Assembly (NCBI GenBank): GCA_951804945.1
Contig: OX638154.1
Coordinates: 32,178,001 to 32,242,000 of the forward strand
Direction: 5' to 3'
Length of the DNA stretch: 64,000 nt
Origin: Podarcis cretensis
Lineage: Eukaryota
Below, piece after piece: positions 61,254-63,367 of the stretch; the first letter of the stretch is position 1; each line of letters begins with the position of its first letter. The position numbers and the translations under genes are program-made. Below the pieces are notes generated by a model. The model saw only the letters and a list, made by a program, of their open reading frames with translations, was not told where the DNA came from and searched no databases.

Positions 61254-61448
61254 TCACACCACTCCTTTGATAAAGCTGGTGTCCAAGTGCACAATTAGCA
61301 TGCGCAAGAAAGACATCTCTTTGCGAGTGTTTTCAAAGATAACTCTGGGATCATCAGATTGGCATCGCAGACAGTTTGGGGCCATCACCATGGCCAAGTT
61401 GTTTACGTCCATCTTGGTTTTGCCCACATTGGTTGGCTGAGCAAAAAT
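61254..61448 (-). CDS. ARHGAP39-like last exon
   Basis: cacag| [19 protein letters not shown]. Confidence 0.93.
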
Positions 61449-63367
61449 CTGTGAAATAAAGAAGGTGCAGCTCAAATAAACTCAAAGATATATAGATGTA
61501 AAATTCTGGAAAATAGCCCAGAAGATTTAGTTGTCCCACAAAGAATCATTTACTCCTGCTAGTATTTATATGCTGTCAACTTTAAGAAAGAATTTCATAT
61601 AGGAGATCTAATTATATTATTATTGTGGGTCCTAAGACCTGCAGCCAAGACTGCCTCTGATACACATTAGAAGAAATGAAGATTGAATCTTCAGAGGGTT
61701 TTATTCAATTGTCATTCTTCCCCTAGTGGAAGGTTCTTTGAATTAGCAATGCCTTTTCTCAGTGGAGCAGAGATAGAAACATTCATCGGCTACTTCCCTT
61801 TTTTTCGGCAGCCCCCACCCCACCTCAAATCTGCTCTGGGGAGTTGGCAAGCCCTTTAGAACAGCATGGGAAGTGGCAACATGCGGAGAGGAAATACTTC
61901 AAGAGGTTCTTAATCCCTGTTCCACTGATGGAAGGCTGTGCTGGATTAAAGAGCCTTCCATCAGCGGAAGTATATCAACTGGATATAATCCAGAATATTT
62001 GCAATGCAGAGTAAAGCGAGACGTTCCAGAGTGCAGCTATCGTATGTTGCTTCAGAATGCCTGTGGCCTGTCTTCTGCTTCAGAATGATTCCTAGTCTCA
62101 GAAATGCAGTTACCTACATACCTGTAAGAAGTGGATGAGGTAACACAAAACCAATTTGTTGAGCTCAGGCAGGAGTTCCACTACTGCTACAGCAGCATCA
62201 GGGTTCTCATAGTTGCTGATACACTCCTTGTAGAATTGCTGTGGGATGACAGGCTCCTCCAGCTCCCGGTACCACAGCTTCAGCAAAGAAGCTGCAAGGG
62301 CAAGAAGGGAAAAAAACAGGCACTTTCAACAACAACAGCTTAACAAATAAGGTATCTGGGTCAGAGACATCTGTCCTGAAGCAGATGTTTAATTGAATAA
62401 GGGCACAACACTCCTGCTCCTCCATCTTATGCTAAGTAAGACTCTGTTCTTCCCCAGAGGAAAGATAGCATCACCCAATTCATTGAGATTTATGGTTTCA
62501 GACCTTTTAAATCACAGGACCCAAATCCTAAAGGGGCTAGGGTAGCAATGGTCTGCGGCTTCAGAAGTAGGTATTAAAAGCTTTGGTTTAGATAGGAGGG
62601 AGGAAACATAAGAACACAAGATGGATCTATCTCAGTGTACTGTGATTTGGAGTGTGACTGAAATGTTAAGGCAAGAGGGAATCTACTGTAGGGCAGAATG
62701 CTGGAAATGGAGCAGTTGGGATTTGGCACTTAAAGAAGGAAGTGGGTATGGAACGAGGGTGGGTGGGGAGGGAATGAGTTTCATGGGTTAGGAAAAGGTC
62801 CCAAATCAAAGATCTCCTATTTTGATGGCTTCTGAATAAAAGTAAGTTCCTGCTATTTATTTGATTCCCATTCTCTCATGAATGAAAACAGTTATATTGT
62901 CAATCTGGGTCTACCTTCCACGGAATTGAAGGATTTGAGCACCTCCCCACAAAAGTAATGTATTAATGGTGAGGCTGTGACAGGGGACAGGATCACAAAA
63001 AGAAAACAGGCCTTTTCAGCAGTGCAGCCTTCCTCCTGCTGGTTGGAATGTTCTCCCAGATGATTGAGTAATATTTTTTCTTGCAACAGTTGGCAAATGT
63101 GGGGGCTGGGGTGGTGCTGTTGTTCTGCAGAGGTCAGGGGATGGTGGGACCGTTTTATGGTGTGATTGTACTTTTAATCTGTAAGTTGTTGCGAGACCTT
63201 TTCATAAAGTAATCAAGAAACAAACAAACAAACAAATCTGAGCGAGAATACAGCAGCTGCGTTGTTTATCCATACCTGGTATATTGGGATCACCAACGTT
63301 GTTAGGAATTTTCCACTGATCAACCTGTAGCTTGAGTGCATTGACTTCATCAATGTCACCAGGAATT
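61254..63367 (-). CDS. Rho GTPase-activating protein 39-like, 3' part (RhoGAP domain); gene continues beyond the window
   Basis: complement join(63367-63276,62291-62122,61448-61254): [30 protein letters not shown] / [25 protein letters not shown] / [64 protein letters not shown]. This is the ARHGAP39/Vilse-family C-terminus. Confidence 0.92.
62122..62291 (-). CDS. ARHGAP39-like penultimate exon
   Basis: tgcag| [17 protein letters not shown] |gtatgt; 170 nt. Confidence 0.92.
63276..63367 (-). CDS. ARHGAP39-like third-from-last exon
   Basis: ttcag| [21 protein letters not shown].. G|gtatg; 92 nt; not in the ORF track in this frame. Confidence 0.9.

What the first reader, a model, noticed from the sequence alone, without database searches (positions are those of the whole stretch)
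61254..63367. Intact ARHGAP39-like RhoGAP beside PHF20: probable whole-genome-duplication paralogue with no human counterpart
Seen: three clean exons with ARHGAP39/Vilse-family RhoGAP motifs. The C-terminus ([33 protein letters not shown]) differs from human ARHGAP39 as I recall it (VFVQPANVAVTKMDVSN..RVLIQHLDTSFMEGVL). Known: human ARHGAP39 is on 8q24, the arm that also holds PHF20L1, SLA and NDRG1, paralogues of PHF20, SLA2 and NDRG3 on 20q11. I know of no human ARHGAP39 paralogue near PHF20. Inference: this is the second ohnologue, kept in this lizard and lost in the human lineage, and functionally little studied.
Basis: partly seen in the sequence, partly recalled or inferred. Interest (0 to 1): 0.7.

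Follow-up and report, generated by a model that had tools for sequence, protein, structure and literature searches.

The report
Second ARHGAP39 gene mammals likely lost
This lizard carries an intact, spliced second copy of the cell-steering gene ARHGAP39 that is shared from sharks to birds; it likely arose in the early vertebrate genome doublings, was likely lost in mammals, and is predicted to switch off Rac-type GTPases, but databases already list it, so it is a modest find.

Summary
Observation confirmed. Window 61254-63367 (minus strand) holds the last three of ten coding exons of an intact 1030-aa WW-WW-MyTH4-RhoGAP gene. [quoted passage not shown] The last intron is spliced in an RNA-type run.

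The genome has a second copy on C7, which groups with mammalian ARHGAP39. The window copy lies in a separate clade (100/100) running from sharks and chimaera to fishes, amphibians, reptiles and birds. Both copies sit among paralogous neighbours (PHF20-, SLA- and NDRG-type), which fits a whole-genome duplication; the round (1R or 2R) is unresolved.

No named mammal is among two top-120 homologue lists, while monotremes, marsupials and placentals carry the canonical copy. Loss on the mammalian stem is therefore likely, but mammalian DNA was not searched. The arginine finger and both activating Src tyrosines are kept, so it is predicted to be an active Rac/Cdc42 GAP.

The gene is database-annotated. 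My searches found no paper describing it as a separate paralogue, and a 2018 review leaves duplication in chicken open. It belongs to a common class: an ohnologue lost in mammals.

The parts
63276..63367 (-). ARHGAP39-like coding exon 8 of 10 (RhoGAP; the arginine-finger codon R879 spans the exon 7/8 junction)
   Evidence: AG/GT sites, in frame, identical to P0002
62122..62291 (-). coding exon 9 of 10 (RhoGAP, with conserved K914 and R918)
   Evidence: Pfam RhoGAP E 1.1e-11; splice sites
61254..61448 (-). last coding exon 10, with TGA stop
   Evidence: Pfam RhoGAP E 5e-05; spliced joint 62122>61448 in run X15
57921..61253 (-). 3' UTR, about 3.3 kb
   Evidence: X15 contig covers 57926-61452 and X2 contig 57921-59533; both stop at about 57.92 kb
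57934..57939 (-). ATTAAA poly(A)-signal candidate 13-18 nt before the contig ends
63368..64000 (-). intron 7; exons 1-7 lie outside the window at G000:C6:32242932-32320659, with the start codon in an 11-nt coding exon inside a CpG island at 32320001-32321000
12500..54500 (-). neighbour: PHF20-type gene (approximate span; CpG island 53.5-54.5 kb)
   Evidence: PHD_5 E 2.5e-18 for exon 17240-17353; one paralogous exon at C7:83.32 Mb; name from recalled motifs and position
5900..9150 (+). neighbour: SLA2-type SH2 adaptor exons (approximate span)
   Evidence: SH2 E 4.1e-11 for 6235-6393; name recalled and inferred from position

Best explanation
[quoted passage not shown] Predicted mechanism, transferred from ARHGAP39/Vilse: the tandem WW domains bind proline-rich partners at the membrane (Robo, CNK2, WAVE); Src-family kinases phosphorylate two tyrosines in the disordered linker (Y260 and Y270 here, Y313 and Y325 in primates); the GAP domain then inserts R879 into Rac-GTP and switches it off, locally damping actin protrusion in growth cones and migrating cells. 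Shown: gene structure, splicing of the last intron, two copies in the genome, two clades, conserved residues. Inferred: whole-genome-duplication origin, mammalian loss, substrate and partners.
For: Intact ORF with canonical splice sites; spliced joint and 3' UTR. Two copies in the genome, C6 and C7. They have matching exon junctions and identical lengths for the last five exons (74/200/92/170/195 nt), with 51.6% protein identity (513 of 995 aligned) and saturated synonymous sites over the last 243 codons (pS 0.78, pN 0.15). Trees: like-clade 100/100, canonical clade 100/98 (36 rows, 487 columns) and 100/100, 97/93 under the mixture model (24 rows); each clade holds a shark. Synteny on C6: Ndr 32.16, SH2 adaptor 32.18, PHD gene 32.20, this gene 32.24-32.32, RBM39 linker 32.36, Romo1 32.37 Mb. 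Synteny on C7: PHD paralogue 83.32, SH2 paralogue 83.45, Ndr 83.63, ARHGAP39 90.87-90.97, DUF4505 92.3 Mb. Mammals: 0 of 119 named hits (list reaches sharks at 67%) and 0 of 117 named hits (reaches chimaera at 49%), whereas echidna, platypus, marsupials and placentals are in the canonical list. R879 is kept in 106 of 108 like-clade proteins, K914 and R918 in 107 of 107. Two [LIV]Y[DE][ED]P motifs occur in 113 of 114; the preprint 10.1101/2021.05.13.443687 (section 6 read) shows Y313/Y325 are needed for GAP activity. The model folds as WW, MyTH4 and RhoGAP, with best PDB matches RhoGAP domains.
Against: Both homologue lists were cut at 120 rows (of 676 and 340 hits), so a very fast-evolving or unannotated mammalian copy is not excluded. 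Two unnamed rows (P0424, P0430) were not placed, and no mammalian DNA was searched. On C7 the canonical gene is more than 7 Mb from the PHF20L1/SLA/NDRG block, so shared synteny is chromosome-scale, not gene-to-gene. The position of lamprey and hagfish is unresolved (AU p 0.26 and 0.43 for the alternatives), so the duplication round is not fixed. The runs are only guessed to be RNA, come from related organisms, and only 1 of 4 showed the joint; 1 of 9 introns was tested. GAP activity and partners are untested. The clade evolves faster (relative-rate test 52-71 against 18-24 unique changes, p 1e-3 to 2e-8), so specificity may have shifted.
Confidence: 0.82

Rival explanations
1. The gene arose by a smaller segmental or single-gene duplication before jawed vertebrates split, not by whole-genome duplication.
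For: On C7 the canonical copy is not adjacent to the PHF20 paralogue (7.2-7.6 Mb gap). Only two of four possible copies exist. Cyclostome placement does not fix the timing.
Against: Three neighbouring families have their paralogues on the same two chromosomes. The timing, after amphioxus and before the shark split, matches the genome doublings. The full intron structure is kept, so it is not a retrocopy.
Confidence: 0.08
2. The paralogue survives in some mammals (monotremes or marsupials) as a diverged or unannotated gene and was lost only later.
For: Only annotated proteins were searched and the lists were truncated at 120 rows. Relatives within 50% identity are hidden behind one representative.
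Against: Platypus, echidna and eight marsupial species are well represented in the canonical list but absent from both like-clade lists, which reach beyond amphibians to sharks. Of the 13 newly numbered representatives that score more than 1.1-fold better to the C6 than the C7 model, 3 are named teleosts and 1 clusters with named frog proteins. Ten of the 13 (the nine without names plus the frog-cluster one) best match birds or lizards (91-97%) or teleosts.
Confidence: 0.1
3. The window gene is the true orthologue of mammalian ARHGAP39, or a decaying pseudogene.
For: Many databases name like-clade proteins plainly 'rho GTPase-activating protein 39' (e.g. P0011, P0021, P0059, P0088, P0094).
Against: The AU test rejects grouping with the mammalian clade (p 1.8e-71). 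Identity to platypus over the conserved columns is 70.6% for the window gene against 97.7% for C7. The ORF is intact, spliced and conserved across jawed vertebrates.
Confidence: 0.01

Closest known systems
[quoted passage not shown]
   Same: The same gene: 7 differences in 1026 residues, same three Pfam domains.
   Different: The databases give an automatic name only and apply it inconsistently. Like-clade proteins are often named plain ARHGAP39, and two canonical ones (P0123, P0146) are named '-like'.
ARHGAP39 / Vilse / Porf-2 / CrossGAP (mammalian; human chr8:144.53-144.61 Mb in the supplement table of PMC10208646 found with a recalled Ensembl id)
   Same: WW-WW-MyTH4-RhoGAP layout; shared exon junctions; arginine finger; three Src-site tyrosines (Y260, Y270, Y702 = primate Y313, Y325, Y785); the 30-31-aa basic MyTH4 insert exon, which is alternatively spliced in mouse (PMC6220574 passage; alignment).
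   Different: Separate clade older than the shark split; about 70% identity in domains and 27% in the linker; 59 clade-diagnostic sites; tyrosine spacing 10 against 12 (113 of 114 against 107 of 108); lacks the 81-nt exon that follows the WW exon on C7; faster evolution (lizard-shark identity 79.7% against 91.6%); GC3 0.50 against 0.87.
Ohnologues lost in mammals (147 chicken genes without eutherian orthologues, PMC3296468; 469 'elusive' reptile genes, PMC5901865)
   Same: Same kind of event: one of a duplicated pair lost on the mammalian line, with a faster-evolving retained copy elsewhere.
   Different: This gene is kept in birds, so it is not 'elusive' in the sense of PMC5901865. Whether it is among the 147 could not be checked because that supplement was not available.

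Membership tests
ARHGAP39/Vilse family | N-terminal WW domains, MyTH4 domain and C-terminal RhoGAP domain in this order | tested here: met
   Pfam on P0002: WW 46-72, MyTH4 688-822, RhoGAP 857-996, all over cut-off. The first WW is seen in the alignment and model but not as a separate Pfam stretch.
ARHGAP39/Vilse family | groups with vertebrate ARHGAP39 against the invertebrate homologues | tested here: met
   Vertebrate clade 100/99 against amphioxus, Pycnogonum and Priapulus.
Catalytically competent RhoGAP | arginine finger plus conserved Lys/Arg and Asn surface residues | tested here: met
   R879, K914, R918 and N983 are present; R879, K914, W916 and R918 are invariant in the 90-row alignment; RhoGAP fold matches. 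The roles of these residues are recalled from RhoGAP structures.
Catalytically competent RhoGAP | stimulates GTP hydrolysis by Rac1/Cdc42 | not testable with these tools
   Shown in print for human and fly ARHGAP39 (PMC6220574 passage), not for this paralogue.
Orthologue of mammalian ARHGAP39 | groups with mammalian ARHGAP39 and lies near C8orf82/LRRC14/RECQL4 | tested here: not met
   AU p 1.8e-71. DUF4505 (C8orf82, name recalled) maps to C7:92.3 Mb near the other copy. The chicken chr2 gene beside C8orf82 is the canonical one (PMC13560938 table).
Vertebrate whole-genome-duplication ohnologue | duplication after amphioxus and before the jawed-vertebrate radiation | tested here: met
   Both clades include sharks; both amphioxus proteins fall outside.
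Vertebrate whole-genome-duplication ohnologue | both copies lie in paralogous chromosome segments | tested here: met
   PHD, SH2-adaptor and Ndr paralogues on C6 32.16-32.20 Mb and C7 83.3-83.6 Mb. Tested in this genome only; the C7 copy is over 7 Mb from the block.
Vertebrate whole-genome-duplication ohnologue | assignment to 1R or 2R by cyclostome placement | tested here: inconclusive
   Lamprey and hagfish join the like-clade at 91/82 and 94/88, unstarred; the alternatives are not rejected (p 0.256, 0.427).
Genes lost on the mammalian stem | absent from monotreme, marsupial and placental genomes | tested here: inconclusive
   0 of 119 and 0 of 117 named hits are mammals. Protein collections only, lists truncated, no mammalian genome searched.

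The most novel reading that the evidence does not exclude
All non-mammalian jawed vertebrates run a second, re-tuned Slit/Robo-Rac off-switch. After duplication this copy evolved about three times faster, changed WW-domain surface residues and the spacing of its activating phosphotyrosines, and fixed these changes for over 400 million years. Mammals discarded it at their origin, which would leave Arhgap39 without a backup, could explain its embryonic lethality in mouse, and would confound chick, frog and fish studies that treat ARHGAP39 as single-copy.
Probability: 0.3. Interest if true: 0.5.

Novelty: new member of a known kind. Interest (0 to 1): 0.32.

Why it matters
[quoted passage not shown] It also exposes hidden paralogy. 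Proteins named ARHGAP39 in pigeon, zebra finch, alligator and Xenopus laevis can be the non-mammalian copy. In chicken, one paper applies the symbol ARHGAP39L to a chr2 gene (PMC11367107) while another calls the chr2 gene beside C8orf82 ARHGAP39 (PMC13560938). Knockdown, expression and association work in chick, frog and fish should tell the two apart. Beyond that it is one more ohnologue lost in mammals, a class with well over a hundred known cases.

Tried and rejected
Six-frame cross-comparison of the C6 and C7 regions gave only repeat noise. It was replaced by 36 rows on 487 conserved columns and a 24-row subset under the mixture model (12 near-redundant rows dropped). The single-sequence fold was useless (mean pLDDT 35); the 90-row alignment gave confident domains. 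No run is on record as RNA. X1 gave almost no cover of the gene's part of the laid stretch, X2 covered only the distal 3' UTR, and the genomic-type run X18 showed no joint at the intron among the rows shown. Only the last intron was tested by reads. Literature: 8 full-text searches found no paper describing this paralogue or its loss. Seen as listings only, except: passages of PMC6389290, PMC13560938, PMC6220574, PMC11367107 and PMC3296468; abstracts of PMC5901865 and PMC10208646; passages and section 6 of bioRxiv 2021.05.13.443687. Supplements: PMC3296468 unavailable, which may bear on novelty; PMC5901865 12 of 19 files searched, no hit; PMC10208646 lists human genes only; PMC10195156 no hit. 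Rejected readings: retrocopy (introns kept), pseudogene (intact, conserved, spliced), lizard-specific duplicate (sharks in both clades), simple orthologue of human ARHGAP39 (AU test).

Full report
OBSERVATION. The window is G000:C6:32178001-32242000. Three minus-strand exons at window 63367-63276, 62291-62122 and 61448-61254 have canonical splice sites and read in frame; the last two hit Pfam RhoGAP. [quoted passage not shown] The gene has ten coding exons (11, 399, 1309, 553, 90, 74, 200, 92, 170, 195 nt) from an ATG at C6:32320659 in a CpG island to the stop at 32239254. This gives 1030 aa with no internal stop. Seven of 1026 compared residues differ from P0002, all outside the domains, so the genome is a Podarcis or a close relative and the gene is already annotated there.

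EXPRESSION. Of 23 listed runs none is on record as RNA; 18 are guessed to be RNA. I laid 4 of them on window 54500-62230. In X15 a contig joins 61448 to 62122, exactly the predicted last intron (depth 52.8, unspliced form 6.4), and another runs from 61452 to 57926. X2 ends at 57921. An ATTAAA lies at 57939-57934. This supports a spliced transcript with a 3.3-kb 3' UTR in a related organism. X1 gave almost no cover of this part, and the other eight introns were not tested.

TWO COPIES. Two different exons each find exactly two places in the genome: this gene and C7:90.87-90.97 Mb. The C7 model (1096 aa without its first exon) shares exon junctions and the lengths of the last five exons, has one extra 81-nt exon, and is 51.6% identical overall. 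Synonymous sites are saturated.

PHYLOGENY. Homologue searches with the MyTH4 exon of each copy returned two non-overlapping top-120 lists. Lamprey, hagfish, amphioxus and other invertebrates came from the representative search and were named by look-up. On 487 conserved columns the window gene falls in a clade of shark, bichir, sturgeon, salmon, coelacanth, lungfish, amphibians, turtle, alligator, bird and squamates (100/100). The C7 gene falls with shark, reedfish, coelacanth, lungfish, amphibians, sauropsids, platypus, opossum, mouse and marmoset (100/98). The mixture model agrees. Holding the window gene with the canonical clade is rejected (p 1.8e-71). Cyclostomes join the like-clade without strong support and the alternatives are not rejected (p 0.256, 0.427), so 1R against 2R is open. 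The like-clade evolves faster: a stem of 0.20 against 0.06, lizard-shark identity 79.7% against 91.6%, and significant relative-rate tests with 4 of 4 outgroups.

SYNTENY. On C6 the order is an Ndr gene (32.16 Mb), an SH2 adaptor (32.18), a PHD gene (32.20), this gene, RBM39 linker (32.36) and Romo1 (32.37). On C7 lie the only other match of the PHD exon (83.32), the SH2 exon with the highest identity though not the best E-value (60%, 83.45), an Ndr gene (83.63), the canonical ARHGAP39, and DUF4505 (92.3). The names PHF20/PHF20L1, SLA2/SLA, NDRG3/NDRG1 and C8orf82 are recalled or inferred from position; only the Pfam families come from calls. The pattern matches the human 20q11/8q24 paralogon (recalled), at chromosome scale.

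MAMMALS. None of 119 named rows and none of 117 named rows (clade-specific linker of the turtle protein) is a mammal, although both lists run through amphibians to cartilaginous fishes. P0104 is frog-like; P0424 and P0430 were not placed. Monotremes, marsupials and placentals fill the canonical list. Thirteen newly numbered representatives closer to C6 are teleost, frog-cluster, bird-like or lizard-like. Against this, the lists show only 120 of 676 and 120 of 340 hits, cover annotated proteins only, and no mammalian DNA was searched. Loss on the mammalian stem is likely, not proven.

MECHANISM. Pfam finds WW, MyTH4 and RhoGAP. The alignment-based model is confident for residues about 10-90 and 610-1030 and disordered between, and its best PDB matches are RhoGAP and MyTH4 domains. 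No solved ARHGAP39 was found by sequence (best hit ARHGAP11A). The arginine finger R879 is kept in 106 of 108 like-clade proteins, K914 and R918 in all 107 with a residue there. For the canonical protein, the review PMC6220574 reports WW binding to Robo CC2 and CNK2, and GAP activity on Rac1. The preprint 10.1101/2021.05.13.443687 reports that WAVE binding and Src phosphorylation of Y313 and Y325 are needed for activity in cells. In primate proteins fetched here these positions are the tyrosines of two [LI]Y[DE]EP motifs; the paralogue keeps both (Y260, Y270) in 113 of 114 proteins, with a fixed spacing of 10 instead of 12, and keeps the Y785 equivalent (Y702). I therefore predict the same recruit-phosphorylate-inactivate cycle on Rac/Cdc42, possibly with shifted partner preference. 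Fifty-nine sites are diagnostic between the clades, seven of them in the WW region. All of this is inference from conservation; nothing was assayed.

WHAT IS KNOWN. The gene is in RefSeq and UniProt across non-mammalian vertebrates, under inconsistent names. Eight literature searches found no description of it as a distinct paralogue. The 2018 review calls the gene single-copy in rat, mouse and human and leaves duplication in chicken open. The list of 147 chicken genes lost in eutherians could not be seen and may contain it. The scan had no note at this place and none with this gene's name, but several on other ohnologues of the same kind.

VERDICT. It is a new member of a known kind, already auto-annotated, useful mainly for correcting orthology. 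Interest 0.32.

Noticed in passing
window 35087-36646: Tc1/mariner (Sleeping Beauty-type) DNA transposon with terminal inverted repeats inside a PHF20 intron; the transposase reads in two overlapping frames.
   Followed up: partly
L011:7091-9793 (G000:C6:32329091-32331793): 901-aa copia-type LTR retrotransposon ORF (gag, integrase core; no reverse-transcriptase hit) between the ARHGAP39-like promoter and RBM39.
   Followed up: partly
G000:C6 against C7 gene models: The mammal-retained copy is the GC-rich one (GC3 0.87) and the lost copy the GC-moderate one (0.50), opposite to the trend reported for 'elusive' genes (abstracts).
   Followed up: no
L003, exon 5 (G000:C6:32247172-32247261): The 30-31-aa lysine-rich insert exon in the MyTH4 domain is present in both paralogues and in lamprey and hagfish but not in the invertebrates shown; it is skipped in some isoforms of both clades, so this alternative exon likely predates the duplication.
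   Followed up: partly
proteins P0245 and P0249: Amphioxus has two divergent ARHGAP39-like proteins that do not group together in the trees, hinting at an older invertebrate duplication; both lie outside the vertebrate clade.
   Followed up: no
G000:C3:18425509-18425706: Intronless Romo1 match with an internal stop, likely a processed pseudogene.
   Followed up: no
window 54810-55054: Very high-copy short repeat next to the PHF20 CpG island (summed depth up to 3 million in run X18).
   Followed up: no
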